Origin: Prorocentrum cordatum | Lineage: Eukaryota | Reading direction: 5' to 3' | DNA: 43,409 bases | Assembly: GCA_963575745.1 (NCBI GenBank) | Contig: CAUYUJ010000259.1 | Coordinates: 620,001 to 663,409, forward strand | In this document: piece after piece, positions 11,617 to 43,409 of the stretch | How the letters are laid out: each line of letters begins with the position of its first letter | Numbering within the stretch: the stretch's first letter is position 1 | Made by a program: the position numbers and the translations under genes | Notes under the pieces: model-generated | What the model saw: the letters and a program-made list of their open reading frames with translations, nothing else | Told to the model about the DNA's origin: nothing | Databases searched by the model: none

Positions 11617-13200
11617 CGTTTCGTGGCTCCATAGGGAGCTCCAGCAAAGGCCCCAGTGGCAGGGTCCGCATGCAGTTCCACCCCCATTTCGGCGCAACTC
11701 TCACACGTTTCGTGGCCCCATAGGGTGCTCCACCCAAGGCCCCAGTGGCAGGGTCCGCATGCAGTTCCACCCCCATGTCGGCGCACCCCTCACACGTTTC
11801 GTGGCCCCATAGGGTGCTCCACCTAAGGCCCCAGGGGCAGGGTCCGCATGCAGTTCCACCTCCATGTCGGCGCACTCCTCACACGTTTCGTGGCCCCATA
11901 GGGTGCTCCACCCAAGGCCCCAGTGGCAGGGTCCGCGGAAGGCCCCAGTGGCAGGGTCCGCATGCAGTTCCACCTCCATTTCGGCGCACCCCTTCCTTAT
12001 TTCGTGGCCCCATAGGGTGCTCCGCGGAAGGCCCCAGTGGCAGGGTCCGCATGCAGTTCCACCCCCATTTCAGCGCACCCCTCACACGTTTCGTGGCCCG
12101 ATAGGGTGCTCCGCTGAAGGCCCCAGTGGCAGGGTCCCCATGCAGTTCCACCCCTATTTCGGCGCACCCCTGACACGTTTCGTGGCCCTATAGGGTGCTC
12201 CGCCCAAGGCCCCAGAGGCAGGGCCCGCATGCAGTTCCACCTCCATTTCGGCACACCCCTCACACGTACCGTGGCTCCATAGGGTGCTCCGCCGAAGGCC
12301 CCAGTGGCAGGGTCCGCATGCAGTTCCACCCCCATTTCGGCGCAGCCCTCACACATTTCGTGGCCCCATAGGGTGCTCCGTCGAAGGCCCTCGTGACAGG
12401 GTCCGCATGCAGTTCCACCTCCATTTCGGCGCACCCCTCACACGTTTCGTGGCCCCATAGGGTGCTCCGCCGAAGGCCCCAGTGGCAGGGTCCGCATGCA
12501 GTTCCACTCCCATGTCGGCGCACCTTCACACGTTTCGTGGCCCCATGGTGTGTTCCGCCGATGACCCCAGTGGCAGGGCCCGCATGCAGTTCCACCCCCA
12601 TTTCGGCGCACCCCTCACACGTTTCGTGGCCCCATAGGGTGCTCCGCCGAAGGCCCCAGTGGCAAGGTCCGCATGCAGTTCCACCTCCATTTCGGCGCAC
12701 CTCTCACACGTTTCGTGGCCCCATAGGGTGCTCCGCGGAAGGCCCCAGTGGCAGGGTCCGCATGCAGTTCCATCCCCATTTCGGCGCACCCCTCACACGT
12801 TTCGTGGCCCCATACGGTGCTCCGCCGTAGGCTCCAGTGGCAGGGTCCACATGCAGGTCCACCTCCATTTCGGCGCACCCCTCACACGTTTCGTTACCCC
12901 ATAGGGTGCTCCATTCAAGGCCCCCGTGGCAAGTCCGCATGCAGCTCCCCCTCCATGTCGGCGCACCCCTCACACGTTTCGTGGCCCCATGGAGTGTTCC
13001 ACTTAGGGCCCCAGTGGCAGGTTCCGCATGCAGTTCCCCCTCCATTTCGGCGCACCCCTTCCACGTTTCGCGGCCACCAAAGGCCCTGGTGGCAGCGCCC
13101 GCACGTGGTTCCACCCTGCATTTCGGCGCACCCCTCACGCGTTTCGTGGCCTCAGATGGGGCTGCACCGTCGCCGACGGCTCCTGTGGCAGCGTCCGCAT
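11617..13200 (-). repeat. 89-bp tandem array, left arm (~17-18 units)
   Basis: Unit CCCCAGTGGCAGGGTCCGCATGCAGTTCCACCCCCATTTCGGCGCACCCCTCACACGTTTCGTGGCCCCATAGGGTGCTCCGCCGAAGG. Minus-strand ORF ends at 12526, 12615 and 12704 confirm the 89-bp period. Confidence 0.95.
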
Positions 13201-13639: not shown

Positions 13640-14840
13640 GCGGACGCTGCCACCAGAGCCGTCGGTGGAGCACCCTATGGGGCCGCGGAACATGCAAGGG
13701 GGGTGGAACTGCATGCGGACCCTGCCACTGGGGCCTTCGGCGGAGCACCCTATCGGGCCACGAAACTTGTGAGGGGTGTGCCGAAATGGGGGTGTGGAAC
13801 CGCATGCGAACGCAGCACTGTGGCTTCCGGTGGAGCTCGCTATGGGGCCACGAAACGTCCGAGGGGTGCGCCGAAATGGAGGTGGAACTGTATGCGGACC
13901 CTGCAACTGGGGCCTTCGGCGGAGCACCCTATAGGGCCACGAAACGTGTGAGAGGTGCGCCGAAATGGAGGTGGAACTGCATGCGGACCCTGCCACTGGG
14001 GCCTCGGGTGGAGCACCCTATGGGGGCCACGAAACGTGTGAGGGGTGCGCCGAAATGGGGGTGGAACTGCATGCGGGCCCTGCCACAGGGGGCCTTCGGT
14101 GAAGCACCATTTAGGGCCACGAAACATGTGAGGGGTGCGCCGAAATGGGGGTGGAACTGCATGCGGACCCTGCCACAGGGGGCCTTCGGCGGAGCACCCT
14201 ATAGGGCCACGAAACGTGTGAGAGGTGCGCCGAAATGGTGGTGGAATTGCATGCGGACCCTGCCACTGGGGCCTTCGGCGGAGCACCCTATGGGGCCACG
14301 AAACGTGTGAGGGGTGCGCCGAAATGGAGGTGGAACTGCATGCGGACCCTACCACTGGGGCCTTCGGCGGAGCACCCTATGGGGCCACGAAACGTCCGAG
14401 GGTTGCGTCGAAATGGGGGTGGAACTGTATGCGGACCCTGCCACTGGGGCCTTCGGCGGAGCACTCTATGGGGCCACGAAACGTGTGAGAGGTGCGCCGA
14501 AATGGAGGTGGAACTGCATGCGGAGCCTGCCACTGGGGCCTTCGGCGGAGCACCCTATAGGGCCACGAAACGTGTGACGGGTGCGCCGAAATGGGGGTAG
14601 AACTGCATGCGGACCCTGCTACTGGGGCCTTCGGCGGAGCACCCTATGGGACCACGAAACGTGTCAGGGGTGCGCCGAAATGGATGTGGAACTGCATGCG
14701 GACCCTGCCACTGGGGCCTGGGTGGAGCACCCTATGGCGGCCACGAAACGTCCGAGGGGTGCGCCGAAATGGAGGTGGAACTGCATGCGGACCCTGCCAC
14801 TGGGGCCTTCGACGGAGCACCCTATGGGGCCACGAAACGC
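13640..14840 (+). repeat. 89-bp tandem array, right arm, inverted relative to the left (~13 units)
   Basis: Reverse complement of the left-arm unit (GGAACTGCATGCGGACCCTGCCACTGGGGCC...). Confidence 0.95.
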
Positions 14841-15605: not shown

Positions 15606-15865
15606 GGTCCCGGGACCCGGGACCGGCGCATGCAGGACCCTGGACCCGGACCGGCGCACCGGGTTTCGCGCCGGTCCCGCTTCCCGGGTCTCGCGCAGGT
15701 CCCGGGTCCCGGGTCCCGCGCCGGTCCCGGGTCCCGGGTCCTGGGTCCCGAGCCGGTCCCGGGTCCCGGGTCCCGCGCCGGTCCCGGGTCCCAGGTCCTG
15801 GGTTACGCGCCGGTCCCGAGCCCCGGGTCCCGGGTCCTGGGTCCCGCGCCGGTCCCGGGTCACGC
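15606..15865. repeat. 25-bp GC-rich satellite, block 1
   Basis: CCCGCGCCGGTCCCGGGTCCCGGGT units. The first ~55 bp are in the opposite orientation. Confidence 0.9.
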
Positions 15866-16349
15866 CTGAAGGCCCTCGGCCTTACTAGTTGTTAGCAGCA
15901 GTTGTAAGTAGGTTATAGGTAAGTTGCAACTAGGTTGCAAGTAAGTTATAACCATTAGTAATGTTACTAAGTCGGCTAACTCGGGCGGTGCATTTGGAGG
16001 TAGATAGCTTGAGTTAGCGAAGTTGCTAACTTCGCTAACTTTTACATGCTTACTTGAAAACAGAGCTGCTGCATCGGGTTTTCCTTGGATGTTGCCTCCA
16101 GAAACGCATGCATGTGTTTGGATTTTCGGGATCACGCATATCGGAAATCATGATCCAGACTTGCGTGCGAACGCATTCAGAATATTGTATCGAGCGTTAC
16201 AAGAATGTTGTGCATTGCAAATGCAACATATCATTTCGAATTCGCAACCCTCTGTTGCACATGTTTTTGAATGTCACTAGAGTTTGGGCTCCAGCCGTTT
16301 GGGCGAGGATTGCTGCTGGCGCTTGTGGCGTCCTCCTGCACGCGGCGTG

Positions 16350-23982: not shown

Positions 23983-24215
23983 GGGCCAAGAACTGGATAT
24001 GGAATGTGTTCCTCCTCCCGACATCTGGGCGGAGGCGGCAGTTCGCCGCTGATCCGCAGCGCCAGACGCCACTACCAAAGCGGCGCCGAAGCCGCCGCTG
24101 TCGCCATTGCGCCTCGAGCGCCCGTGCCGCCACCAGCGCGGCAGCAGGCGTCGAGTCCATTCTAGACCGCGCGCTGCATCTCCTCCGTCGGGCATGATCT
24201 ATTATGGTGGGGGTT

Positions 24216-24510
24216 GTCGTATGTAAGATTCTGACATACGACGCAGTTGTCGTATGTAAGATTCTAACATACGACAAAGTTGTCGTATGTAAGATTCTGA
24301 CATACGACACCGTTGTCGTATGTAAGATTCTAACATACGACGGATGTGTTAATATAATCCTTATGATATCTATAAGAGCGAGATGTCGTATGTACGATTC
24401 TTACATACGACAACGTTGTCGTATGTAAGATTCTAACATACGACAGATTTGTCGTATGTAAGATTCTGACATACGACAGATTTGTCGCATGTGAGATTCT
24501 GACATACGAC
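24216..24510. repeat. Array of eight 27-bp palindromes (33-bp period) arranged 4 + 43-bp spacer + 4
   Basis: GTCGTATGTAAGA-T-TCTDACATACGAC starts at 24216, 24249, 24282, 24315, 24385, 24418, 24451 and 24484. The AT-rich spacer is 24342-24384. Confidence 0.95.
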
Positions 24511-24659
24511 ACCAAGGGTTTGAGCTCATGTTTAGAGTAAACTTCGAGGGTCTCCATCTCGCTCGTGGTCGACGTTGCGCCTAGAATTGGCTTGTCTGCT
24601 TGGCTGCGCTGCCCGCGGCTGCGCTGGATCATGTTGATAAGTGATGCATGAGCGTGGCG

Positions 24660-30206: not shown

Positions 30207-32289
30207 ATGGCCGCGTCCGCCGCCAGGAAACGCAAGGCGGATGAGGCGCTGGTGGAGCTCCACAAGGGCTCATACCTGTCACAGCGTGCTCTGTCGGGTG
30301 TCCTAAAATATATGCGAGACCATGGGTTGCCCGACAATATTTCACGGAGCTCACAATACAGGGCAAACGGAAACATCATTGCCAAAGAGTCGAACGCAGA
30401 TGGGAACGTCTTGCGTTGCATAGACACGCCTTTAGTCAGTGGTAGAACTTTCGAGAACTGGGTGTGCTGTCCTGGGCCACTTTTGTATTCCTGCTGCAAG
30501 GCTAGCGCTCCAGTCAGGGAGATGTTTCGCCGCTCACTTCAGGAGCACCCATGCAGCCTGGCGTCGCCGCGGCACATCATTTTATATTTCGATGGTATTT
30601 CACCGCGAGACCCCCTGGCGAAGGGGAGAGATTATCGGGGGGGTGATGCTGTTTACTGGTCGTTCGCTGAGTTCGACGAGTCCTTGGGTAACGAAGATGC
30701 GTGGTTCACGCTTAGCACTGCGCGGTGCGCAAAAATAAAAAGCATCCCAGGTGGCATCGAGCAGTGCATCAAGATGATCCTCAACGAAGTTTTTTTAAAA
30801 TTCTGCTGGTGGTTTCAATTTTGAGACGAGCGGTGTTACATTAGACGCGTCAGAGAACGGCGACGCAACGTCGCACGCGACGATCGTCGCGAAGCTGTCG
30901 TGCGTCATAGGGGACGAAGAGGCATTGCGGGAACTACACATGAACAAAGGGCACGCCGGTTCCAAACCCTGCGCGTTATGTCGCAACGTCTTGAATAGAA
31001 AGTTTGATTATTTGACATATGATGTATCTGGTTTCTTTGTGACAGACGCGTGCTTGGACGCGTCAAAGATACGCAGAAACGATGACGCGACAATCATCGC
31101 GGTCCTGGAACGACTTCGGCCCGATTGGGATAAATATCAGCGGGGGGAGTTTTCAGAGGGGCAGTACACGACCATCACACAGCACAAAGGATGGAACTTC
31201 CACCCCGAACACATAGCGCTGGACCCAGGTTTGCGATATCTCCCTGCGTCATTCATTTGCTTTGACTGGATGCATATTTATTTTGTGTCTGGTATATTCG
31301 ACAGAGAAGTAAAAGCACTTTTAGGGCATGCGCAGTTCAAGTGTTTGTGTGATGCAAGGGAGTTGCATGAGTATTTCATGAAGTGGACGTGGCCGAGTAA
31401 ACACCACTCAGCCGCAACTGTATGGGAGACTGGTGAGCTCCAAGCAGGTGCCTCAGAAGAGATCTCTGCGTTGCCTGTTTTGTGCAGGTATATTCGGCAA
31501 GTAATTGCCAAGCATCCTTCATCGGATCAAGTGCCCCCCCAGATCGCAAGTATGCTGGCATTGCAAGATGCCGTTGACATAATCATCGCGGCGGCGCGGC
31601 GGCTTCCAGTCACGACCGCGCAGATAGAGTCAGCGATAGTGAAACATCTTCGGTGCCATCAGGACGCATATGGTGAAAGCTATTGGGTGTATAAGCACCA
31701 TATGGCAACACCATTTGCCAGAAATGTTTGAAAAAAACATGGGTCGCTCAGTTGCTTTGTCCAGGAACGCAAGCACAAAAACGTAAAACGTTTCGCCAAT
31801 GACCACATGTGCAAGAAGGGGCCAGAGAAGGCTCTCATGGTCCAACTCACTGCGCAGCACGCGCACGATTTAAAGACCATGCGTGTTTCACCTGGCTTAG
31901 TCGACCCAACGAAAGCAACACAGAAGCTGCTGAATGCGTTGAAACGCATGTGCCCTGGGACGCAGACAGCCGTCTCCAGCATCGAAGCCATGACAGATTT
32001 CGGCCGCATCAAGCGCGGTGATATCGTACTTCTGGGGTCGGGCGGGATGCATGCAGCAATGCAAGTGTGGTTTCACGTGAAATGCGACGATGGCGAGTCG
32101 CAGGTGCTTGTCCAGCAGCTTGCAACTAAGCATGTGAACGCCGCTGAAGGTTTTTCCAGACACATCTTTTTAGATGATACAGACCCTGTTCTGATGCCTC
32201 TGACCTCGCTGAAAGCTGTGATTTACAGGAAAATAGAGAACGACGTCACGTGCATTTGGCCAGTAGAATACACATCGCGATGTTGCTAA
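30207..32289 (+). pseudogene. CACTA/CMC (EnSpm-Mirage/Plavaka-like) DDE transposase, frameshifted
   Basis: Ordered motifs ILYFDG, IGDEEA, KPCALC, FDWMH, KHHM..HL and SCFVQERKHK match the D..D..CxxC..DxxH..H..E layout of CMC-type transposases. Indels occur at homopolymers near ~30795 and ~31710-31737. Confidence 0.75.
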
Positions 32290-32530
32290 CATGATGCGCT
32301 GCGGACCGTCGCGTTTGCCCCAGGACGATAAAACAATCTGAAGGCCCCTGAGCAGATCCAAATCGACGAAGCGCCCAATCATGATGCCCCAATTTCCAAC
32401 TACATGAGATGCAAAAACATAACATAAACATTAAACAACAGCTTCAAACTGGCCAAACCTAACTAGTTATAACTCCGTTAATAAAAATTAGAAGTTCCGC
32501 TAACTGTTACTAACTACGCAGGGCCTTCAG

Positions 32531-32758
32531 GCCGGGTCCCGAGTCCCGCGCCGGTCCCGGGTTCCGGGTCCCGGGTCCCGCGCCGGTCCCGGGTTTCGGG
32601 TTTCGCGCCGGTCCCGTCTTCCCGGTGTCGCGTTGGTCCCGGGTCGCGGATCTCGCGTTGGTTCCGCGGGTCCTGGGTCCCGGGTCCCGCGCCGGTCCCG
32701 GGTCCCGGGTCCCGCGCCGGTCCCGGGTCCCGGGTCCCGCGCCGGTCCCGGGTCTCGG
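32531..32758. repeat. 25-bp GC-rich satellite, block 2 (between elements A and B)
   Basis: Same unit and orientation as block 1. Confidence 0.9.
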
Positions 32759-32802
32759 CCTTGAGACTCCAAGGTCGATCTATAGTGCGGGGTCGAACTA
32801 TA
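32759..32802 (+). repeat. Left TIR of element B
   Basis: CCTTGAGACTCCAAGGTCGATCTATAGTGCGGGGTCGAACTATA is the exact reverse complement of 42052-42095. Confidence 0.97.
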
Positions 32803-33034
32803 GATCGACCTGGCACTTTCCTTGGGTCGCACTATAGTCCAACCCATGATTTTTGGCCAGGTCGTACTTTTCTTCGCTCGCGCATTGTTAAGGATCCCCT
32901 GAGTGAGGGGGCATGCGTCCCCTGAGCGAGGGGTATCGGCTGCATCACATTGCGCGCATGTTACAACATCCCGCAGCTGCGAAGGCTCGAGGGCACATAG
33001 CGCTACTCTTGCTTGCGCGCACTGGGGGTGGGCA

Positions 33035-34440
33035 ATGGTCAAGGGCAAGACGGAGGTGAAGATACGGGCTTCTTCTGTGACAGAGGAACAGTTGAAGCCG
33101 CTCGTGAAACAGCACATTGATCTCATCGAAAAATGCCAACTGCAAGGGGGCATAGATGACTTCATGAAGAACAACATGCCGTTTCTCTTGCCGCTTGCGC
33201 AGCTCACCACACGCGTCAAATGGAAGAACCTCCAGGACGTCGTGTTGAAGCAGAAGCCGAACATGCACCAGGAAGAGTGTAGGCGTTTCTGCCAGGAGGT
33301 GGCCAACGCTTTCAGCCATGTTTGCAACAAGTTCTACATCGCCAAGACGGGGGGGAAGCTGGAGGCGCACACAAAAATGCTTGGGGTGGCAATGGGGCTG
33401 CAGCCTGGCAGGGCAAGCCCAAGCACAGGAGAGAGCAAAAAACGCGCCGACAGCAGCTCCGACATAGAGATGAACCCTCCAAAATCTTCCACGGCCGCCG
33501 CGTCGTCCAGCGCAGATGGGGGCAGCAGGCGCAATGTCATCAAGAACGCCTTCGGCATCAGCCCGCCTCCGAAACCGGCAGGGAAGAAACAGAAGGTTGC
33601 CACGTGGAGCCCGATGGTGGTGTTCTCGTCGCAGGAGGACGTCGAGCTCGCTGACCCGCCCGCCGCGGCCCCGAAGGAGGATCGGAGGGGGCGGGCAGGG
33701 TGGGGGGGGGAGGGGAGCAGTTTTGATTTTTCACGGCGTAACCGAACCCCTTCGGGAGGGGAGCTCGGGAGGGGCAAGTGAGAGACCCGCCCCAGGATCC
33801 CCTGGCCACGTATTTCGATTTCAACTCCGAGCCGATGTGCATGGTGATGAAGTTCGCAGACAGGGAGGAGCGGGGAACACTGACGAAAGGAGGCGATGGT
33901 TTCTTGGATGCCGTGTTTCCCGACGGCAGGACGGAGAAGACGGAGCAGCCCAACGCCCTCCTGGCAGCAAGAGCGGCAGCCGCGCAGGCGAAGGCGAAAG
34001 CGTGCAAAAAAGGGAAGCCAGCAGGACATGTAGTGGCAAAGAAGCCTGCAATGAGAAAGCCCAGTGCAGCCGCCGCGAACACGGAGACGGACCAGGACGA
34101 TGAGGGGGAGGAGGAAGAGCAGCTGGAACCCGATGAGCCCGTGGATGCTGCAGATGAGCCCTCGGTCGGCGCTGGGCCCCCCGCTGGCCACGCCGACCGC
34201 GGGTACAGCGTGATGTACTACAAGAGGGACCACTCTATCGGGTTGAAGCGGACGCACGGTGAGAAGAACCAGTTTGTGAGTTTCGGCGGGAAAAAGTACA
34301 AGGACACCTTGGACGAGGCCACGCTCAGGGAGATCGGCGCAGAGCTGAAGAAGGCCTTGGTCGACGGCACCGTGGCTGACACCAAGGAAGCTGCTAAGGC
34401 GGAGGCTGAGCGCTTAGTGGCACAGCGCTTGGGCGACTAA
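33035..34440 (+). CDS. Two-exon cargo protein with a K/P/A-rich linker and a small basic C-terminal domain
   Basis: Exons 33035-33679 and 33796-34440. A GA-AG intron with AG|GATC at both junctions joins ORFs 32903 and 33778 in frame. Confidence 0.7.
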
Positions 34441-35408
34441 TCGCATCCATCCTCATCATCGCATCCATCATCATCATCATCCTTACCGTCTTCATCGCCA
34501 TTGCCATCGCCATACCCGTTGGCAGAGCGCCCTCTCCAGTGCTAGACGACACCCCCTCATCGCAGGGGCGCCCCTCCGTGAGGGGACCGCGCGATGGATT
34601 GGCGAGTGATGGAACCCCTTAAGAGGGGAACCCCTTAAGAGGGGCTTCAGCACACTCGCGATAAGACAGGGCAACGGCCCCCTCCGAGAGGGGACCCCTC
34701 GGGGAGGGGATCAAAGGTGCGGCAGTCTGCTTACTCATTATGTGTATGGCATTGCGTTTCCTCCTCGTTCCATCCCTCTCCCATTTGCTTTCATGTTCTT
34801 CATCCGCAACCGTTCGACAGAGCTGACGCCCAGCGCGCTTGGGGGCCAGCCCCCCGCCCCGAGCTCGCGGCCATGCGGGCGCTCATCGCGCGCCTCTCGG
34901 CGCTCCAGGCCGCGCGGAAGCAGAATGCAAGGGGGGAGTTGGGGCAGGATGAGGAGAAAAGTAAGAGTGACGGCCACTTGTTTGGCCATCTGGGCGATAA
35001 AAAATCAATCCAGCAGCCGAGTTTTAGACCCACCTTTTTTAGCAAAAAAAGGGGGGTCTAAAATTGGACGAATTCCTATGAAATTCCATTACATTCACCC
35101 CCCCGAAGGGCCTCCCACGAGGCCCCCAGATTTTAGCCTTTTGAGTCTGACTAAAAACTTTCGGCCGCAACCGTTCTGGACCCCAGGCTTCCGGCATGAT
35201 GATGTCGGGCGGCTGCGGCGGCGGGCTGCCTCCAGAAGGCGGTGGCGGCGGCAAGCGGCCTCACGAGGAGCTGGGGGTACACGTGGTTAAGGCGCCCCTT
35301 CCTGAGGGGATCCGTTTACAGAGACCCCTGCCAGAGGGGATTTATCGATAGAACCTCCCCTTCCTGAGGGGATTCATTCACAGAGACCCGTGACCCTTCC
35401 TGAAGGGA

Positions 35409-35774
35409 TTGATTTACAGAGACACCCTGCAGGACGGGCACGCGCCTGTCTTTGAGGTCGACGACGACGACAGCGAGGCGGAGGAGGAATTCATGCTGGA
35501 CTTCCAGGACCACAGGAAGCGGTACACCCGCTCGTCCCACCGCTTGTGGCTTCGCAAGATGAACTGCAAGAAGTGTTGGCAGTGCGGCAAACACACCTTC
35601 TTCTCGGTGTGCGTTGGCAAGACGTGCCAGGAACACCACGCGACCCAGTGGTTCCACGAGCACGGCGACCGCGACCGCAACGGGAGGAGGTGGAGGGGCG
35701 GCAAGAGCGAGGTCGCCAGAGCCAGGCAACGCAAGGGTGCAAGTGGTGGGGAGGGGGGAACCCTCAAACATTGA
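35409..35774 (+). CDS. Possible small Cys/His-rich (zinc-binding-like) protein
   Basis: CKKCWQC..C...CQEHH cluster and GC3-rich codons. The start is uncertain. Confidence 0.4.
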   Translation: MIYRDTLQDGHAPVFEVDDDDSEAEEEFMLDFQDHRKRYTRSSHRLWLRKMNCKKCWQCGKHTFFSVCVGKTCQEHHATQWFHEHGDRDRNGRRWRGGKSEVARARQRKGASGGEGGTLKH

Positions 35775-36219
35775 GGAATGAAGTTATGTCGGTTTGATGT
35801 TTTGATGTTCTCAATGTTTATCCTGGTCAGTTTTCTGCGCCTGCCAGGCACTGGCAGCGGAGGTGCGATACCAGGGAGGCGGTCTTGGTCGGCCTGCTGC
35901 AGGACCGCACCCCCCCCCTCTGCCCCGCGCTGCCAAGAAGGGAGGGCCCCTGTTTGAGGGGATAAACGAGGGGGGACCGAATAAACGCAAGAAGAGGCCC
36001 CTCTCATGGGGGTGAGCTTACTTCGTCGTTCCCCGACAGGAGCAGCAGAACGAAACAGCAGCGCAGCCGCCGCCCCCGCAGGGGGGGCCAACGCCACCGA
36101 TCGGCCCGCCACCCGCAGCACTGTTAGCAGCAGCAGCGGCTGGACACCCCGCAGCAGCAGCAGCAGCAGCAGCACCGCCCGCAGCAGCAGCAGCAGCAGC
36201 GGCAGCACCTGCCGAAGCA

Positions 36220-36975
36220 ATGCAGGTTGACGGATCCGACGACGGAGCCCGAGAGGGGGAGGAAGAAGAGGAGGATGAGGGCGAGGAGGAAGAGGGCATG
36301 GAGGAGGAAGCGGAGTCAGAGGAGCCTGATGAGCTGATGAGGCTAGAGGAAGAGCACGCAAGGCAGCATCGGAGGCTCTTGCGGGCATTGAATCGCACGG
36401 AGGCGGCGCAGAGGGGCGTCGAAAGGCACAAGGAGCGCCTTCGGCAGGAGCAGGAGCGCAGGGCAGAGCAGGAGATCATCCGCCTGAGGCGGGCGCAACA
36501 ACAGCAGAGGGACGCCGCGCTGAGGCGGGAGGCAGAGGCCCGCCTGGAGCTGCAGAGGGCAGCAGAGGCCGCCGAAGCGCAGGCGAGGACGAGGCTGCTG
36601 GCTGCCGAAGCGGCCGCACGGAGGGCGGAAGAGGCGGCCAAGGCTGCCAAGGATGCGGAGGACGCAGCGCGGGCCAAGGAGGAAGCGGAGCAGAAACAGA
36701 AACGAGAGGCAGAGGAGCGGCAGGCGGCAGAGACGGCAGCGCCAGAAGCGGCAACACCAGAGCAGCCAGAGACGGGCGCAGCAACGGCGGACGCAGCCAG
36801 GGCGGACGCGGAGAACGCAGACAACAAAAAGAAGGACCCCAAAGCAAAAAAAAGGCCCCGCGCGGACCAGGCGGGGGGCAGACCCTCGAAAGGAGGGAGG
36901 GGCGACAAAGACAAGGACAAGGACACTGAGAAGGACAAGGGCAAGCGCCCGAAGGCGACCTCTAAGAGGGGCTAG
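36220..36975 (+). CDS. A/E/R-rich coiled-coil protein with an acidic N-terminus and basic C-terminus
   Basis: 251-aa ORF preceded by a CAG-rich leader, with heptad-like composition. Confidence 0.65.
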   Translation: MQVDGSDDGAREGEEEEEDEGEEEEGMEEEAESEEPDELMRLEEEHARQHRRLLRALNRTEAAQRGVERHKERLRQEQERRAEQEIIRLRRAQQQQRDAALRREAEARLELQRAAEAAEAQARTRLLAAEAAARRAEEAAKAAKDAEDAARAKEEAEQKQKREAEERQAAETAAPEAATPEQPETGAATADAARADAENADNKKKDPKAKKRPRADQAGGRPSKGGRGDKDKDKDTEKDKGKRPKATSKRG

Positions 36976-37299
36976 GACCGCTTCTCCATCCTCCTGGTCA
37001 CTCTTCCTCCTGCTCCTGCTTGTCGCCCGCCCTCCTCCTTGTCCATATCCCTCTTGCTTCTGCTCTTCCTCCTTGTCAATCTTCCTCCTGCACCCCCATC
37101 CGCCCCAGGACGGCGCGCCCTGAGCCGCGGGGCGACCGCGTCGGCGACGGCGCCGACATCCATATACATTTGCGCGGCCTCTCGCGCCAGAATAGAGGCG
37201 GTACGGGTTAAGGGGACTCTGATTGACTGTGGCCCCTTCATTGCAGGGGCGCGCGCGGCTGCCCCTGGCAGAGGGGACGGGCGATCACGAAACCGATTA

Positions 37300-37490
37300 T
37301 CTTAAGGGGAAATTCTCTTTGGAGAATTCTCTTAAGAGAATTCTCTCTTAAGAGAATTCTCTTAAGAGAATTCTCTTAAGAGAATTGCGTGGATGTCTCA
37401 GGCAAAACCAACAATTCTCTTAAGAGAATTCTCTTAAGAGAATTCTCTTAAGAGAATTCTCTTAAGAGAATTCTCTTAAGAGAATCTCTC
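37300..37490. repeat. Self-complementary 14-bp tandem array (AATTCTCTTAAGAG)n split by a 26-bp spacer
   Basis: Overlapping palindromes GAGAATTCTC and CTCTTAAGAG. The spacer is 37387-37412 (GCGTGGATGTCTCAGGCAAAACCAAC). Confidence 0.95.
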
Positions 37491-38283
37491 TCGTAAAGGT
37501 CGCTTGCAGTGCACCCCCCCTCGCTGCATGGGGGCCAGACGAGCCCCGCTGAGGGGCGAAACGCCCCTGGCTGAGGGTGGGGGGGGGAGGGGGCGGGGCT
37601 GGGCCGTATCTGACGGGCCCCCTAGGGGGGTTGGGGGGCGCGGTGTTCCTGATTGAGGGGGGCCCCTGAAACATCTTTGACGGGCCCCTTGCGGAGGGGC
37701 ACCGCCGTCCTTCACTGAGGGTGAGCCCCTTTAATGAGGGGGGGCAGTGTGAGCAGGGGCAGCAGGGGGGAGCAGTAGCATTGCATCATGGGTGAGTCGT
37801 TCGGGCCCCTGTGCTTGCCTGCCGCGCAAAGCAATCCAGAGAGGGGGGTGCCCCTTTTTGAGGGGGCGCGCACCCCTTACTGAGGGGGAGGCCCTGGCAC
37901 ATCCCCTCCCCCCCCCCGCCTCACCGCTGATGAGGTAGCACCCCTTCTCTTCGAGGGGGAGGAGGCGACCGCGTGGGTTGCGAGCCCCTTCGAGGGGAGA
38001 GAAACGAACCCCTGGCTGAGGGGAAGGCTCGACGATACTGAAATGTACCACCACACACGCCACACCCACAGCACCACACCACACCCACACGCACCACTGA
38101 AGTGCGCGGGGAAGGCCCCCGACGATCTACTTGCCATTCGCAGGCGTTTCGGCTGCCGCAGGGCATTTCGATTTTGCTGCTGTATCCCAAATTTCAGGGG
38201 TCAGTCCCGCGGCAGCCATGCCCGCCCCAGGAGTAGTCTCTCCTCTGCTCCTGCTGGGCACTCTCCTCACACCGTTGTGCAGC

Positions 38284-39557
38284 ATGGCGCCGAAGAAGAA
38301 GATCGAGGGCCAGGGCGCACCAGCGGCGAAGAAGTCGAAGGCGGCCCCGAAGGGGCACGGGCTCGACAAGCAGGAGGCCGACAAGATGAGGGCGTGGCTC
38401 AAGTACCAGTCGGAGAAGAAGGACGGCAGCGGGAAACCTACGAGCACAGCAGAATCCGCCAGAGCAGCCCAGGCGCTTTGGAACGGGATGAAGGACCCAG
38501 CCGATCGGAAGCGTTTCTTGCAGACCTTCGCGAGTGACAAGGATAAGACACTTGACTGGTTGGCCACCTTCGAAGAGAGATGCACGAATGAAGAGGTGCA
38601 CGCGCGCTCTGCCAAGAAAGGGTACCGGAATGTATCGCAGGCACTGGCCCTCAAGAACCTCACCATCAAAGACTTTGCGAACATCCAGGAAGCCACTGCC
38701 TTCGTGCAGGAATGGTGGGAGGAGAACAGCGAAGAGCATGGCACCAAAGAAGAATTCCCCATCAAGGAAGATGTCAAGGACAGGCCTCTGTGGAAGGAGT
38801 GGTACTTCGTCGAGCGCAACATGGACGATGACCAGCTGGTGACGAAGGACTCGCGCACCTTCAAGGGGACGTCCAACCTGAAGAACCTGAAGCAACTCGA
38901 AGCTGCAGGCATCAGGATGGCCGAGCTCCCGTCGTCCAGCGCTTCGGGGTCGGGTGGGGGCGGCGAGGTGAAGATCGAGAATCCGCACTGGCCAGAGATC
39001 GTGAGTAAGAAGGACGAGATCGCGCGCCGTCCTCGGCAGCCGCCCCCTGCCCTTCCATCTCTGGTGCTCTGCCAGACCCCTCCCAGAGGGGGGCCCTCTC
39101 CCCCGCCACGCCCCCGCCGCCCCTCCTGGAGGGGATGGCGATAGAAACTGTTCGTATCCGTTCTGTCGTGCGTTGTTTGCGTTGAAAAGCATGTCGGCGC
39201 ATTGCTTGTTTATGATCCCTACCAAGGCAAATGCTGGTCAAGTATCAGAAGGAGCTGAAGTTCCTAAAGCACACGAAGAATCAGTTGCTCGCGAAGGCTG
39301 GGGATCAGGATCAGAAGGACCGTCAGAGCTTCCAGAACTGGGCCGATGAGTGCAAGAAGTGCGTGGACAATGCGGACCAGCACGAGACGGCGATGGAGGT
39401 TCTGATTGCGAAAATTGAGGGCGCTGATTCTGTCGGCAAGGACACGGACATGTACGATAAGCTGAAGAATGAGGTCCAGGCCGCCTACAACACACACGAG
39501 CACATGTACGAGGGCATTCAGCTCTCGGTCAAGCGCTTCAAGAAGTTCCTCAATTGA
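38284..39557 (+). CDS. Two-exon hypothetical cargo protein with an N-terminal NLS-like MAPKKK and helical C-terminus
   Basis: Exon 1 runs from 38284 to ~39023 and exon 2 from 39227 to 39557 (acceptor ccaag|g). The donor position is approximate. Confidence 0.7.
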
Positions 39558-39987
39558 GCTGCGGCCCTACATCTACATCTACATATCAGTATTTACATGC
39601 ATATATGCAGTAGGGTTTGAGATGCTCTGCCTCGCCCGACGACGCGCATGCAGCGCTGCCTTTCCGACGCCCGTGGGAAAACGAGAACTTGCCGCTTCCT
39701 CTGCCAGGGGTGCCCCTTCGTGAGGGGCCGCGTGTTTCTGGGTTTGCCAGTAAAGAAGCCCCCCTCATCGCAGGGGCGCGGGGGGAGGGGGGGGCGGGGG
39801 GGAGGGGGGCTTGGTATCATCAGGAGGGGAGTAGCAGGAGGGGAGGGGCATGAAAGGGATTGAAGGAGGGCGCGGAGGAGGGGCGCGGGAAAGGGCAAGG
39901 GCCCCTTGCCTCATCCGCGCATGTCCGTAGCCACTGCAGTGGCTCAAGGCCGCCGCGCTCGCGCCTGTCTCCCGCGGGCCCCGCGGG

Positions 39988-41866
39988 ATGCTTTCCAGGC
40001 GGCGGTTGCCTTATGACAGGTTGGGCTTGCCGCCGGAGAGGCGGCTGAGAGCGAACGTGCAGGACCTGATAAGCAGCAACGTGGTCAGCGGGCAGCGCGG
40101 CGCTCAGCTGATCAATGACTGCGTCTCTGCATCTGCGACAGGTCTCTCCGACCTGCACACTACGGAGTCAACGTCGGGCATGAAAAACGCTGCCAGGAAG
40201 TTCAGGCGGGATTTCTTCAGGAAAGGGTGGCCTCCGCTCTATCACTGCCAGGTGAGGGGCTGGGACCCCAAGTCTGAAACAGAACAACTGATGGACTTAG
40301 CGATGATGCTTCCTCACGAAATACTTCATCAACTTCATCATTTTGGCGAGCGGAGCGTGCTACTGGAGACGTCGAGTCTCGACGGCGTGTCTCTGCGCCA
40401 CGTGCAAAGAGCCAGGGCGGAGAGTGGTTGCAACGACCTGGTGGCCCTGGGCGTGTGGCAGGACGGGGTCCCTTGCTTTTGGGACCGATCGATGAGCGCA
40501 GAGATCATCAGCCTCATGTTGCCAGGGGCTGCGGGGCGCTGGAAAAACCTGCGGGTCCCAATCACAGCGTTCCTCAAAGAGCACGTGGGCCCCAACACAT
40601 TTGATGATGTTTTTGCAGTGGTGCAGTGGAGCTTTGTTCACTTGGCTGCGAAGCGCTGGCCGGCGGCACGGCACGACGGCTCTCCCTTCGGCGCGCAGGA
40701 CGCCTGGAGGAAGCGCCGACAAGTGGCCGATGCAACCCTACCAATTGGCGGAGTGCTTTGCCAGATCAAAGGGGACTGGAAGATGATGAAGGAGGTGCTC
40801 AAGCTACCTGGCTGGCAAGATGACGAAGTATGCTTCCTGTGCAACATCAAGAAGGACGAGGCCATGGGAGCGCAACACATCAGGGGAGGAAGGAAATCCC
40901 CTCTGGGAGGGGGTGCGTCGTCGTCGTTTTGCGGCCCCTTCAGGGGGGGTGGAGGAGGAGGGGGAGGAGGGGTGGAGGAGGAGGAGGAGGAGGAGGAGGA
41001 GGAGGAGTGTTTTTGGCTACTCCCCGCAGGTGAAATCGCAGACTGGGAGAGACGCGCCGTGGAGAACGCACCGACGCACATGGCCAGAAGTCCTTGCGAA
41101 GATTATCGTTTCAGGCGAGCAGGTGTGCCCTCTCTTCCAAGTGCCGTATGCGAACGAAAAGTTGCTGAAGCTAGATTGGTTACACGTTGTTGATCTTGGA
41201 GTAGCGGCTGACTTCATAGGGGGTTTGCTATGGTATCTTGTAACGCACAAAAAGGTGGCTGGAACTACCCAGAAAGGCCGCGTCTCCACACTACATGGTC
41301 ATTTGATGGCGTTCTACGACAGGCAGCCGCCAGGTGAGAAGACCAGCCGCCTATCGAGACTGACGCGGGGCGTTGTGAAAGGAAAAAAAGCAACGACGGC
41401 TAAGATGAGGTGCGGCGCGGGGATGCTCAGGCACATGGTTCCATGGGCATTGGAGATGGCGGAGGCTTTCCTTGATAGGAGGAATGGCGTCGACGAGCGG
41501 GCAGCTGTAGAATCGTCCATTCACGCAGGGATGAAAAGCTTATGTCGGTGTTACGAGGCACTCTCTGACAATCACCCATTTGCTGTGGACATTCTTAGAG
41601 AGCATTCGAGTAAGTTTGCCACGCAGACGGCCGCTTTGCAAGACGCGCTTCCTGCCCATTTGAAAGTGAAGCCTAAAATGCACATGTTTCTGGAGCTGTG
41701 CATGGGCGGCGGTGAACCAGCGAAGCACTGGAACTATAGGGATGAGGATTTCGGTGGATCTGTAGCTGCATTTGGCCGAAGGAGGGGCCAAAGGAGGTCC
41801 ATGAGAGCGTTTTCGGTGGCATGCATCTCTAAGTTCTGCGGCCAGCCGATTGTGCGCATGCTTTGA
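39988..41866 (+). CDS. CACTA/CMC-like DDE transposase, two exons, apparently intact
   Basis: A phase-0 GC-AG intron at 40861-41029 joins ORFs 39988 and 40820 (..KKDE|VKSQT..). Motifs VWQDG, KGDW, CFLC, LDWLH, KPKMH and WNYRDE are in the CMC order. Confidence 0.8.
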
Positions 41867-42051
41867 AAAGAACGCTTCTGTGTGTATCGTTGTCATTCAT
41901 TGCTGTCGGCTCAAATATATGTTGGACCCCTCCCAGTGGGGTGAGCGCGAGCATGGGCGCTGAAGCCCCGTTTGCCCCAAAACGGCGGGTCGAACTATTT
42001 TCGGCGCGCCCGAACTATAGATCGACCCGCAGAAAAGTATAACCCCCGCAT

Positions 42052-42095
42052 TATAGTTCGACCCCGCACTATAGATCGACCTTGGAGTCTCAAGG
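42052..42095 (-). repeat. Right TIR of element B
   Basis: Exact reverse complement of 32759-32802. Confidence 0.97.
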
Positions 42096-43009
42096 GGGTC
42101 CCTCGCCGGTGCCGCGTTCCGGGTCCCGGGTCGGGGGTGCGTCGCGCGGGTCCCGGGCCCCGGGTCCCGAGTCCCGCGCCACGCGCCGGTCCCGGGTGGT
42201 CCCGGGTCCCGGGTCCCGCGCCGGTCCCAGGTCCCGCGCTGGTCCCGGATCCTGGTCGCGGGTTCCGCGCCGGTCCCGGGTCCCGCGGGTCTCGCGCCAG
42301 TCCCGGGTCCCGGGGTCCGCGCCGGTCCCGAGTCCCGGGTCCCGCGCCGATCCCGGGTCCCAGATCCCGCGCCGCAAGGTCGCGGGTCCCGGGTCGCGCG
42401 CCGGTTCCGAGTCGCGGGCCCTGAGTCCCGGCCTCTGCGCCGGTCCCGGGTCCCAAGTCTCCCGGGTCCCGCGCCGGTCCCGGGTCCGGGGTTCCGCGCC
42501 GGTCCCGGGTCCCGGGTCTCGCGCCGGTCCCGGGTCCCGGGGTCCCGCGCCGGTGCCGCGTCCCGGGTCTCGCGCCGGTCCCGGGTCGGGGGTGCCGGGT
42601 CGCGCGCCGGTTCCGGGTCCTGGGTCCCGGGTTCCGCGCTGGTCCTGCGCCGGTTCCGGGTCCCGGATCGCGCGCCGCAAGGTCGCGGGTCCCGGGTCGC
42701 GCGCCGGTCCCGAGTCGCGGGCCTGAGTCCCGGGTTCTGCGCCGGTTCCGGGTTCCAAGTCCCCCGGGTCCCGCGCCGGTCCCGGGTCCGGGGTTCCGCG
42801 CCGGTCCCGGGTCCCGGGTCTCGCGTCGGTCCCGTGTCCCGAGGTTCCGCGCCGGTGCCGCGTCCCGGGTCCTGCGCCGGTCCTGGGTCGGGGGTGCCGG
42901 GTCGCGCGCTGGTCCCGAGTCCTGGGTCCCGGGTCCCGGGTCCCGCGCCGGTCCCGCGCCGGTCCCGGGTCCCGAGTCCCGCGCCGGTCCCGGGGCCCGG
43001 GTCCCGCGC
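42096..43009. repeat. 25-bp GC-rich satellite, block 3, with a ~303-bp higher-order duplication
   Basis: Same unit as blocks 1 and 2. The variant GCCGCAAGGTCGCGGG occurs at ~42371 and ~42674. Confidence 0.92.
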
Positions 43010-43409
43010 CTACTTGGATGGCCGCGGCGGCTGCTAGGTGGTTAGCGCGGATACTAAGGGGTTAGAGGATTTAGTATGTACGTGCAAGTGAGTTGTAAGT
43101 AGGTTATAAGTGTTGTAAGTCGGATGTAAGTTGTATAACCAGCTACAACTGGTTAGTAGGAGATACTAACCACTTATAGCTGGAGACTAACCTTGCTAAG
43201 TCTCTAGTAGAGGTTAGCTCGCTCCAGTAACCACTTACTAACCACTTAGTAACCAAATAGTAAGTCCGCTAGCTAGCTTACTTACTAAGTGGCTAGCGGA
43301 CTTACTAAGTGGTCAGCGGACTCTGAGAAGGAGAAGGAGGAGGAGGAAGAGGAGGAGGAGGAGGAGGAAGAGGAGGGGGAGAGAGGAGGAGGAGGAGAAG
43401 GAGGAGGAG
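43010..43409 (+). mobile_element. Probable left end of a third element (C) related to element A, truncated by the window edge
   Basis: Abrupt switch from satellite to AT-rich TAAG/GTTAG/ACTAA-rich sequence. The 18-mer AGTTGTAAGTAGGTTATA at 43091 is identical to 15900 in the subterminal region of element A. Confidence 0.6.

What the first reader, a model, noticed from the sequence alone, without database searches (positions are those of the whole stretch)
32896..40912. Element B is marked by at least 19 co-oriented CCCCT-N4-GAGGGG motifs in non-coding DNA and introns
Seen: exact copies at 32896, 32919, 33747, 34571, 34679, 34695, 35295, 35325, 35357, 35947, 37262, 37685, 37851, 37873, 38009, 39077, 39120, 39713 and 40898, plus near-matches with other spacings. 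The N4 core varies while the arms, the spacing and the asymmetric G are fixed. Copies fall in intergenic DNA and in all three predicted introns, none in predicted exons, and I noticed none outside element B. Inference: binding sites for a dimeric element-encoded protein that coats the whole element, comparable to the VANC anti-silencing motifs of VANDAL transposons.
Basis: partly seen in the sequence, partly recalled or inferred. Interest (0 to 1): 0.8.

Follow-up and report, generated by a model that had tools for sequence, protein, structure and literature searches.

The report
Transposon-specific oriented hairpin motif
A 9.3-kb jumping gene of a dinoflagellate carries one short self-complementary DNA word, always in the same orientation, in every non-coding stretch and in no exon; distant relatives carry a matching word with changed but still pairing arms, so it looks like a selected built-in signal whose reader is unknown.

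Summary
CCCCT-N4-GAGGGG occurs 19 times on the + strand, all between 32896 and 40912 (0.05 expected). All copies lie inside an element bounded by perfect 44-nt terminal inverted repeats (32759-42095). None lies in my putative exons, and none in the other 34 kb of the window.

New here:
- The loop G gives a polarity: 13 sites have G only, 0 have the mirror C only.
- Other loop lengths are also enriched (9 seen, 1.8 expected).
- In 55 metagenome loci encoding distant relatives of the transposase, CCCCT-N5-AGGGG is absent. CTCCT-N4-AGGAG occurs 29 times in 12 loci (0.17 expected), outside exons, at comparable places and mostly in one clade.
- Sister copies of the upstream gene g4 (54-62% identical) carry intron read-through peptides that fit both g4-intron hairpins, in other reading frames. 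I did not see their DNA.

Best reading (0.4): a selected, strand-oriented stem-loop tag read on the sense strand. No binding or RNA evidence was obtainable. This scan noted similar transposon-specific hairpin motifs before, on other DNA of this genome.

The parts
32759..32802 (+). Left terminal inverted repeat of the element
   Evidence: 44 nt, 100% complementary to 42052-42095; its 23-nt core occurs only at these two places in the window.
42052..42095 (-). Right terminal inverted repeat
32775..32850 (.). Left subterminal CTATAG-core repeats, a cis system different from the CCCCT motif
   Evidence: Read; internal inverted pair I19.
42009..42081 (.). Right subterminal CTATAG-core repeats (3 copies of about 19 nt)
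   Evidence: family D9.
32896..32910 (+). Motif copy, upstream of g1
32919..32933 (+). Motif copy, upstream of g1
33747..33761 (+). Motif copy, putative g1 intron
   Evidence: the two g1 reading frames differ.
34553..34568 (+). Variant with 6-nt loop (CCCCTCATCGCAGGGG), 3' flank of g1
34571..34585 (+). Motif copy, 3' flank of g1; shares a module of about 35 nt with 39713
34615..34644 (+). Two tandem variants with 4-nt loops (CCCCTTAAGAGGGG, 16-nt period)
34679..34693 (+). Motif copy
34695..34709 (+). Motif copy (16-nt tandem with 34679)
35295..35309 (+). Motif copy, putative g2 intron, unit 1 of a tandem of about 31 nt
   Evidence: D5. Runs X2 and X3 carry a 20-nt duplication behind 35304.
35325..35339 (+). 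Motif copy, unit 2
35357..35371 (+). Motif copy, unit 3 (unit 4 at 35393 is degenerate)
35947..35961 (+). Motif copy between the g2 and g3 reading frames
35998..36012 (+). One-mismatch copy (T-G type)
37233..37249 (+). Variant with 7-nt loop (CCCCTTCATTGCAGGGG), 3' flank of g3
37262..37276 (+). Motif copy, 3' flank of g3
37311..37491 (.). Palindromic tandem array AATTCTCTTAAGAG (arms CTCTT/AAGAG)
   Evidence: only sub-threshold miRNA-like Rfam rows.
37564..37578 (+). One-mismatch copy
37685..37699 (+). Motif copy, g3-g4 spacer
37726..37741 (+). Variant with 6-nt loop
37851..37865 (+). Motif copy
37873..37887 (+). Motif copy
37941..37958 (+). Variant with 8-nt loop
37985..37997 (+). Variant with 3-nt loop
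38009..38023 (+). Motif copy, 275 nt upstream of the g4 ATG
39077..39091 (+). Motif copy just after g4 exon 1; fits the peptide PSQRG in 8 of 10 sister gene calls (PSQRA in the other two)
39120..39134 (+). Motif copy just after g4 exon 1; fits the peptide PL[LP]EG in 10 sister gene calls
39713..39727 (+). Motif copy, 156 nt after the g4 stop and 275 nt before the transposase ATG
39761..39776 (+). Variant with 6-nt loop (CCCCTCATCGCAGGGG)
40898..40912 (+). Motif copy in the transposase intron, about 35 nt after the putative GC-type donor at 40863
40935..40946 (+). Variant with 2-nt loop, same intron
41927..41941 (+). One-mismatch copy (CCCCTCCCAGTGGGG), 61 nt after the transposase stop
33035..34440 (+). 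g1, putative two-exon gene of unknown function
   Evidence: Homologues: one 99% identical, one partial. No Pfam match.
35187..35774 (+). g2, putative gene with a Cys/His cluster
   Evidence: No Pfam match. Only a non-significant Nop10 zinc-ribbon row, E=0.46.
36220..36975 (+). g3, charged coiled-coil-like reading frame (may be joined to g2)
38284..39557 (+). g4, conserved accessory gene; exon 1 is 38284 to about 39002, and the second exon 39237-39557 is putative
   Evidence: 13 homologues; 41 representative clusters; g4-like frames in 10 of 55 relatives' loci, on the transposase strand.
39988..41866 (+). g5, DDE-type transposase-like gene; intron at about 40863-41029
   Evidence: Nearest named cluster is Plavaka (0.91, a lead only).

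Best explanation
The motif is a selected cis-signal of this transposon lineage. It is a 5-bp stem (CCCCU/AGGGG, closing U-A) with a 5-nt loop ending in G. It is written in the direction of transcription into every non-coding segment of the element (upstream regions, putative introns, 3' flanks) and kept out of exons. I think it is read as a stem-loop on the sense strand. The most probable substrate is the element's primary transcript; transiently single-stranded sense DNA is also possible. The motif would then mark the element's own non-coding RNA or DNA as 'self', to keep its genes expressed or correctly processed. Shown: enrichment, element specificity, polarity, exclusion from putative exons, and a matching motif with covarying arms in related elements.
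For: - Enrichment and specificity: 19 copies against 0.01-0.05 expected; none in the other 34 kb of the window.
- CCCCT is the stem of 19 of the 43 five-bp/5-nt-loop hairpins in the element; outside the element no stem exceeds 3.
- Polarity: G-only 13 against C-only 0. In relatives, oriented by the transposase strand, loop position 1 is never C (0 of 28 unique sites) while loop position 4 is G in 12 of 28. The sense-strand non-coding composition there is C 0.20, G 0.25.
- Loop length is flexible within hairpin range: 9 sites with loops of 2-8 nt other than 5 against 1.8 expected; 0 with loops of 9-15 nt against 2.1 expected.
- One-mismatch variants keep G-U-type pairing on the sense strand 10 times (7 in relatives, 3 here) and A-C type 2 times. 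A further 20 are transversion or other types, 7 of them one coding repeat in L002.
- Sense-strand 21-mers fold 0.9 kcal/mol better than antisense ones, Wilcoxon p=0.003. This is partly circular, because the G was part of the definition.
- Arms covary and stay complementary: CCCCT/AGGGG here; CTCCT/AGGAG 29 times in 12 of 55 relatives' loci (0.17 expected); CTCCC/GGGAG 3 times in L005; CTCTT/AAGAG 4 times in L044.
- Placement is comparable across lineages. A hairpin lies 18-46 nt after the exon ending CxxC..CTPxQ in L010, L023, L044, L025 and L041, and about 35 nt after it here. Another lies 170-310 nt upstream of the transposase start in L004, L005, L006, L008 and L013, and 275 nt upstream here.
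- Exact copies outnumber one-mismatch N5 copies 19 to 5 while the flanks are unrelated.
- Ten sister g4 gene calls (54-62% identical in exon 1) read through the intron. Eight of them carry PSQRG and all ten carry PL[LP]EG. Both peptides are translations of the motif, in reading frames different from those of this copy.
Against: - No RNA run holding the element was listed, so transcription, introns and folding are untested.
- The stem has only 5 bp.
- The spacing is very uniform (19 of 28 inverted pairs have N5), and two 5-bp half-sites one helical turn apart are typical of a dimeric DNA-binding protein.
- Co-orientation, restriction to non-coding DNA and tandem growth are all reported for the double-stranded DNA motif of VANC21, so they do not separate the two readings.
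- The G-U to A-C count is small (10 to 2, p about 0.04) and includes chance background.
- Not every related clade has a fixed-arm motif: the 8-row clade of L011-L022 has none, and 0 of 55 relatives carry the CCCCT form.
- Conservation in sister copies rests on peptides, not on DNA that I saw.
- The relatives' hosts are unknown, so a host-wide CTCCT motif is not excluded for them.
Confidence: 0.4

Rival explanations
1. The copies are double-stranded DNA binding sites for an element-encoded sequence-specific protein, which could be g4, g1 or the transposase N-terminus. The protein occupies the non-coding parts of its own element and keeps it active, by anti-silencing or self-activation, as VANC does in VANDAL and TnpA in Spm.
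For: - The motif is element-specific, dense, co-oriented and non-coding, as described for VANC21 (PMC5735166, passages). TnpA motif clusters likewise occur only on cognate copies (bioRxiv 10.64898/2026.08.24.746577, passages).
- The half-sites form an inverted repeat 10 bp centre to centre, with a dominant fixed spacing.
- There are local tandem arrays of 16 and about 31 nt, and a 20-nt copy-number difference between strains.
- The arms differ between lineages, as expected if protein and target co-evolve.
- g4 is a conserved, co-oriented partner of the transposase: it lies upstream in 9 of the 10 loci where it was found, and one of those hits is weak.
Against: - A symmetric dimer does not explain the one-sided G (13 to 0), nor the same polarity in 12 independent loci.
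- Other spacings are enriched.
- Several arm types occur within one locus (L044, L005).
- No DNA-binding domain was found in any element protein.
- The termini carry a different repeat, with a CTATAG core, which is the likelier transposase-binding site.
Confidence: 0.33
2. The hairpins are gene-boundary signals of the element's own expression cassettes: 3'-end formation or termination after each gene, plus intronic copies without a separate role. This resembles hairpin-dependent 3' ends such as the histone mRNA stem-loop.
For: - Each of g1, g3 and g4 is followed within 113-290 nt by a paired module: CCCCT(T)CAT(C/T)GCAGGGGCGC plus an N5 copy. The g1 and g4 modules share about 35 nt.
- In relatives, copies lie 35-374 nt after the last transposase exon.
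- The stem has pyrimidines on the 5' arm, purines on the 3' arm and a closing U-A pair, as I recall for the histone stem-loop.
Against: - Copies also lie upstream of the first gene and in all putative introns.
- There is no Rfam match to the histone 3' element or to any other family at the motif sites.
- No transcript ends are available.
Confidence: 0.1
3. The motif has no function of its own. It is a by-product of local duplication, slippage or conversion of a small palindromic unit in G/C-run-rich spacer DNA, or a motif general to the host genome.
For: - Some copies are plainly local duplicates: 32896/32919, 34679/34695 and 35295-35393.
- A duplication polymorphism exists.
- GGGG and CCCC runs are common in the element.
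- No whole genome was held, so density elsewhere in the genome is unknown.
Against: - Most copies have unrelated flanks and different loops, yet 11 of 11 arm positions are intact.
- Exact to one-mismatch copies stand at 19 to 5.
- No copy occurs in 34 kb of equally GC-rich DNA next to the element.
- A comparable motif occurs at comparable places in relatives whose transposase is at most 44% identical.
- The motif is apparently retained in sister copies across changes of reading frame.
Confidence: 0.1

Closest known systems
VANC21 target motif YAGTATTAY of VANDAL21 (Arabidopsis Mutator-like elements; PMC5735166, passages read)
   Same: A short motif highly enriched in the cognate element and rare elsewhere. 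[quoted passage not shown]
   Different: The VANC motif is a 9-mer without dyad symmetry, shown to be bound as double-stranded DNA. Here the motif is an inverted repeat with a free loop and a one-sided G. No VANC-like or Mutator-like protein is present. The host is a dinoflagellate. Binding and any effect on silencing are untested.
TnpA-binding subterminal repeats of En/Spm (CACTA) elements (PMC2613891 passages; bioRxiv 10.64898/2026.08.24.746577 passages)
   Same: A two-gene logic: a conserved transposase plus a fast-evolving accessory protein that recognises reiterated, lineage-specific motifs, some of which form stem-loops. Clusters of motifs give specificity for cognate copies. The transposase here has Plavaka (CACTA-related) as its nearest named cluster, which is a lead only.
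   Different: CACTA repeats sit within a few hundred bp of the ends, and TnpA-induced hypomethylation is restricted to the termini. Here the motif runs through the whole element and the termini carry a different repeat. The termini are not CACTA.
Transposon-specific hairpin motifs noted earlier in this scan in the same genome (e1-7695511: GCTGCAGC-core palindromes in an 18-kb element; e1-7630429: one-strand hairpins along a 28-kb pogo-type element)
   Same: Large multi-gene DNA transposons of the same dinoflagellate, each studded with its own short self-complementary word; in one of them the word lies on one strand only.
   Different: The transposase families and words differ. I did not re-examine those loci. 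They are unchecked AI notes, not independent evidence.
Histone mRNA 3' stem-loop (Rfam RF00032; its structure is recalled, not taken from a call)
   Same: A short stem with a pyrimidine-rich 5' arm, a purine-rich 3' arm and a closing U-A pair, a small loop, and a position downstream of stop codons.
   Different: No Rfam match. Copies also lie in introns and upstream regions. The loop is variable and the conserved flanks of the histone element are absent.

Membership tests
VANC/VANDAL anti-silencing system | Motif enriched in non-coding parts of the cognate element, same orientation, high density | tested here: met
   the feature is as described in PMC5735166.
VANC/VANDAL anti-silencing system | Element is a Mutator-like element that encodes a VANC protein | tested here: not met
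   No Pfam family for any of 8 reading-frame pieces. The transposase's nearest named cluster is Plavaka, not MULE.
VANC/VANDAL anti-silencing system | The protein binds the motif as double-stranded DNA and causes loss of DNA methylation | not testable with these tools
   Needs EMSA, ChIP or DAP-seq and a methylome.
En/Spm (CACTA) TnpA subterminal repeats | CACTA termini | tested here: not met
   The terminal repeat begins CCTTGAGACTCC.
En/Spm (CACTA) TnpA subterminal repeats | Repeats confined to subterminal regions | tested here: not met
   Copies run from 137 nt inside the left end to 1.2 kb from the right end, throughout the interior. The ends carry other repeats (D9).
En/Spm (CACTA) TnpA subterminal repeats | tnp2/Transposase_21-type transposase | tested here: inconclusive
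   No Pfam hit. Plavaka-like by language-model features only: 0.91, with 150 shared features.
Histone 3' stem-loop or any Rfam family | Match to the covariance model | tested here: not met
   48 sub-threshold rows, none at a motif copy; 46 lie in or around the palindromic array 37290-37584.
MITE- or introner-type mini-insertions | Each copy bounded by its own terminal repeats and a target-site duplication, with conserved unit flanks | tested here: not met
   Flanks of the 19 copies carry no conserved positions beyond the 15-mer. No flanking direct repeats. One relative's intron (L044) does have a 22-nt direct repeat.
TIR DNA transposon (the element as a whole) | Terminal inverted repeats enclosing a transposase-like gene | tested here: met
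   The target-site duplication was not resolved, because the element sits in a satellite.

The most novel reading that the evidence does not exclude
Large DNA transposons of dinoflagellates and related marine protists each write a lineage-specific, strand-oriented stem-loop 'barcode' into all of their non-coding RNA or DNA. The barcode co-evolves with an element-encoded reader (here g4). This would be a self-recognition system acting on hairpins rather than on linear double-stranded DNA words. Three unrelated transposon families in this one genome appear to have arrived at it.
Probability: 0.25. Interest if true: 0.85.

Novelty: new variant of a known kind. Interest (0 to 1): 0.62.

Why it matters
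How transposons persist and stay expressed in dinoflagellate genomes is essentially unknown. These genomes are huge and repeat-rich, lack nucleosome packing, and make mRNA by trans-splicing. A compact 15-nt word marks exactly the non-coding parts of one element, is apparently kept in sister lineages, and has a covarying counterpart in related elements from many marine metagenomes. That gives a directly testable handle: one oligonucleotide, four or five candidate proteins, and two strands. If a reader exists, this would be the first self-recognition (anti-silencing or processing) system of a transposon outside plants, and possibly one that works on a folded strand. The motif is also a practical marker for annotating this unclassified transposon family and its g4-transposase gene pair.

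Tried and rejected
- Whole-genome count: no genome is held for this window.
- RNA evidence: no RNA holder was listed. The four runs laid were DNA contigs. They showed near-identical copies only, no intron joints, and no diverged non-coding sister sequence. X19 had pieces with many differences, but only in the transposase exons.
- Earlier notes by place, by sequence and by relatives gave nothing for this stretch.
- Pfam on 8 reading-frame pieces and on 28 g4-family members: no family above threshold.
The second reached 72.7. Foldseek against the PDB found nothing at E<=0.001. VIA-align gave a best Z of 5.5 on a generic three-helix part. No fold assignment can be made.
- PDB sequence search with transposase relative P0001 and with g2: nothing significant.
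- Protein atlas for g1: no usable hit.
- g4 relatives in viral contigs: none.
- Double-motif scan of viral contigs: 8 loci, all short local repeats in GC-varied viral contigs with palindromic CCCCTC..GAGGGG, unrelated to this element.
- A longer conserved unit around the motif: none.
- Direct repeats flanking hairpin clusters in this element: none.
- A fixed-arm motif in the L016/L018 clade: not found, only assorted 6-9-bp hairpins.
- Literature: three full-text searches, judged from the listings, plus passages of PMC10666404, turned up no description of transposon-specific hairpin motifs in dinoflagellates.
- Target-site duplication: not resolvable in the flanking satellite.

Full report
**Observation**

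Six of them also match on the - strand, only because their N4 starts with C.

- Dinucleotide-preserving shuffles give 0.05 for the whole window, 0.017 for the element alone and 0.012 for its non-exon part alone.
- From half-site counts (40 CCCCT, 70 AGGGG in 9337 nt) 0.3 pairs are expected at any one spacing; 19 are seen at N5.
- CCCCT accounts for 19 of all 43 perfect five-bp/5-nt-loop hairpins in the element. No stem exceeds 3 in the other 34 kb.
- The only other CCCCT-N5-AGGGG in the window, at 30612, has A instead of G.
- Composition does not explain this: the rest of the window is equally GC-rich.

**The element**

The copies lie inside a unit bounded by perfect 44-nt terminal inverted repeats, 32759-32802 and 42052-42095. 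The core of the repeat occurs nowhere else in the window.

- The ends carry their own subterminal repeats with a CTATAG core (D9; read). These differ from the CCCCT motif.
- The element sits in a GGTCCCGGGTCCCGCGCC satellite that has the same orientation on both sides.
- All reading frames are on the + strand: g1 (33035-34440), g2 (35187-35774), g3 (36220-36975), g4 (38284-39557) and g5 (39988-41866).
- g5 resembles 3 database proteins of 540-575 aa (33-43% identity) and 55 metagenome loci. It carries conserved D, D and E-containing blocks and a CxxC. No Pfam family matches. The nearest named cluster by language-model features is Plavaka, at 0.91 with few shared features, which is a lead only.
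- Alignment with intron-less relatives places an intron at about 40863-41029, between CFLCNIKKDE and ...DAPWR. Its GC donor and AG|G acceptor fit the splice-site usage tabulated for dinoflagellates in PMC10666404 (passages).
- Earlier notes of this scan name the genome as a dinoflagellate.

**Distribution and polarity**

With my putative exons (5448 nt) none of the 19 copies overlaps an exon, p=6e-8 under uniform placement.

- Copies lie upstream of g1, in the frame-shifting gap of g1, in the 3' flanks of g1, g3 and g4, and in a tandem of about 31 nt that fills the putative g2 intron.
- Further copies lie between g2 and g3, in the 1.3-kb g3-g4 spacer, just after g4 exon 1, and in the transposase intron.
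- G at loop position 5 is invariant (19 of 19), while the mirror-image C at loop position 1 occurs in 6 of 19. G-only against C-only is 13 to 0, p=2.4e-4.
- Loops avoid A at positions 1 and 3. The base after the 3' arm is A in 11 of 19. Nothing else in the flanks is conserved.
- Inverted pairs with loops of 2, 3, 4, 6, 7 or 8 nt number 9 against 1.8 expected. Loops of 9-15 nt number 0 against 2.1 expected.
- A second recurrent form, CCCCT(T)CAT(C/T)GCAGGGGCGC, sits next to an N5 copy after the stops of g1, g3 and g4. The g1 and g4 modules share about 35 nt.

**Near-identical copies**

DNA runs from several studies hold the element at 99% identity or more.

- Of the differences printed (40 of 199 substitutions, 12 of 37 indels), none is a substitution in a motif core.
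- One run shows a one-base loss at 37262 in a minority of contigs.
- Two runs carry a 20-nt duplication behind 35304, inside the g2-intron tandem.
- This has no power to show constraint, but it does show that the tandem is dynamic.

**Relatives**

In the 55 metagenome loci (185,037 nt; transposase at most 44% identical) CCCCT-N5-AGGGG is absent, 0 of 55.

- CTCCT-N4-AGGAG occurs 29 times in 12 loci against 0.17 expected (max 2 in 200 shuffles). It is the commonest non-AT five-bp/4-nt-loop hairpin in the set.
- 27 of the 29 lie outside every tblastn match. The other two (L044 1379 and 1412) fall in a 43-residue gap of one alignment that contains a stop codon, and lie between the matches of the other queries, so they are in an intron or an insert.
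- L044 alone has 8 dispersed copies with different loops in 3.5 kb.
- Other pairing arm types occur: CTCCC/GGGAG 3 times in L005 and CTCTT/AAGAG 4 times in L044.
- Placement recurs. A copy lies 18-46 nt after the exon ending CxxC..CTPxQ|GT in L010, L023, L044, L025 and L041, and about 35 nt after it here. A copy lies 170-310 nt upstream of the first transposase match in L004, L005, L006, L008 and L013, and 275 nt upstream here. Copies lie 35-374 nt after the last exon in several loci.
- Relative to the transposase strand, loop position 1 is never C (0 of 28 unique sites) and loop position 4 is G in 12 of 28. The background is only mildly skewed (C 0.20, G 0.25).
- In a tree of 37 loci with a single match of at least 200 aa, the CTCCT carriers concentrate in one clade: 8 of 12 rows, support 89/91. 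An 8-row sister clade has none. The window's copy is not inside the CTCCT clade. L044 and L041 were left out of the tree because their matches were shorter than 200 aa.
- The L016/L018 clade has assorted 6-9-bp hairpins, including one 37 nt into the same intron, but no fixed arm.
- The trait is therefore lineage-specific within the family, not universal.

**Sister copies of g4**

g4 exon 1 has 13 database relatives and 41 representative clusters.

- A profile of the family finds g4-like frames in 10 of 55 loci, all on the transposase strand. In 9 of them the frame lies upstream of the transposase, one of those weakly. g4 and the transposase thus form a conserved gene pair.
- Ten relatives that are 54-62% identical in exon 1 were called without introns and read on past IENPxWP.I.
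- Their tails contain PSQRG (8 of the 10; two have PSQRA) and PL[LP]EG (10 of 10). These are translations of CCCCT..GAGGGG in frames 3 and 1, at the places where this copy has its two copies, 39077 and 39120.
- Read the same way, this copy gives TPPRGG (frame 2) and PSWRG (frame 3).
- Retention across a change of reading frame argues for constraint on the nucleotide word rather than on a peptide. I saw only proteins, and the tool that would fetch their contigs was closed.

**DNA site or folded strand?**

The published VANC21 case shows that element specificity, restriction to non-coding DNA, co-orientation, tandem growth and divergence between lineages all occur with a double-stranded DNA motif. 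Clusters of TnpA motifs behave similarly at Spm termini.

Four features lean towards a hairpin read on the sense strand:
- the one-sided G, found here and in 12 independent loci;
- the excess of other loop lengths within hairpin range;
- one-mismatch variants of G-U type 10 times against A-C type 2 times (small numbers, 20 further variants of other types);
- several mutually pairing arm types within single loci.

Sense 21-mers also fold 0.9 kcal/mol better than antisense ones, p=0.003, but this is partly built into the definition. Against the hairpin view stand the short stem, the dominance of one spacing that puts the half-sites one helical turn apart, and the complete lack of RNA data. I put 0.40 on the sense-strand stem-loop reading and 0.33 on double-stranded DNA sites. 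I put 0.10 on a gene-boundary or 3'-end signal, suggested by the modules after each stop codon. I put 0.10 on a by-product without function or a host-wide motif.

**Who reads it**

Nothing could be assigned.

- No element protein has a Pfam family.
- The better g4 model (pLDDT 72.7) has no informative structural neighbour.
- g2 has a Cys/His cluster with only a non-significant resemblance to the Nop10 zinc ribbon.
- g1 has only near-identical relatives plus one partial one.
- g4 is the first candidate only because it is the conserved partner of the transposase.

**Comparison with what is known, and novelty**

The system works like VANC or TnpA target arrays in layout, but it fails the membership tests of both.

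- There is no Mutator-like or VANC protein, no CACTA ends, and the motif is not subterminal.
- No Rfam family matches the motif copies.
- The copies are not mini-insertions with their own ends.
- Three full-text searches, judged from the listings, found no description of transposon-specific hairpin motifs in dinoflagellates.
- This scan noted two analogous cases on other DNA of the same genome (e1-7695511 and e1-7630429), which I did not re-test.
- I rate it a new variant of a known kind. It would be categorically new if the folded-strand reading is right.

Noticed in passing
window 15866-16050, 32420-32531 and 43010-43330: The satellite blocks (15659-15861, 32532-32758, 42096-43010) abut inverted copies of another end sequence: GCCTGAAGGCCCT... 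at 15866 and its reverse complement at 32519-32531. A similar 'GTTGTAAGTAGGTTATA' region begins again at 43090.
   Followed up: partly
window 39925-39948: CCGTAGCCACTGCAGTGGCTCAAG lies 40 nt upstream of the transposase ATG. It resembles the dinoflagellate spliced leader (recalled) but with a longer middle that makes it a palindrome. A match this good or better appeared in 11 of 100 shuffles. Earlier notes report relict leaders before transposase genes in this genome.
   Followed up: partly
window 37311-37491: A tandem array of the palindromic 14-mer AATTCTCTTAAGAG in two blocks that can form long perfect hairpins. Its arms CTCTT/AAGAG are the same as a minor hairpin type in relative L044. Only sub-threshold miRNA-like Rfam rows match it.
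   Followed up: partly
L044 1328-1465: The hairpin-bearing insert in the transposase gene of this relative is flanked by a 22-nt direct repeat (AAATGGGCCAACCTCAGGCTCC) and contains an in-frame stop. This suggests an intron or insert created by duplication, or by insertion of a hairpin module.
   Followed up: partly
window 11617-13083 and 13702-14839: Two arrays of an 89-nt tandem repeat (about 13 copies each) in inverted orientation, 88-93% alike.
   Followed up: no
window 24213-24512: Nine copies of a 33-nt tandem unit, each forming a 10-14-bp hairpin (ACATACGACA...TGTCGTATGT).
   Followed up: no
L016 4588-4650 and L018 5198-5260: Relatives end in 14-16-bp palindromes with a CTATA core (GCCTATATTCACTAAA...). 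These are reminiscent of the CTATAG-core subterminal repeats of the window's element and may be a family-wide end signature.
   Followed up: no
window 38160-38283 and the N-terminal extensions of P0006-P0017: Gene calls of the g4 relatives start upstream of the MAPK start, and their extensions are alike (..APLLL..LG..L.T..). The 5' leader of g4 therefore seems conserved at the DNA level too.
   Followed up: no
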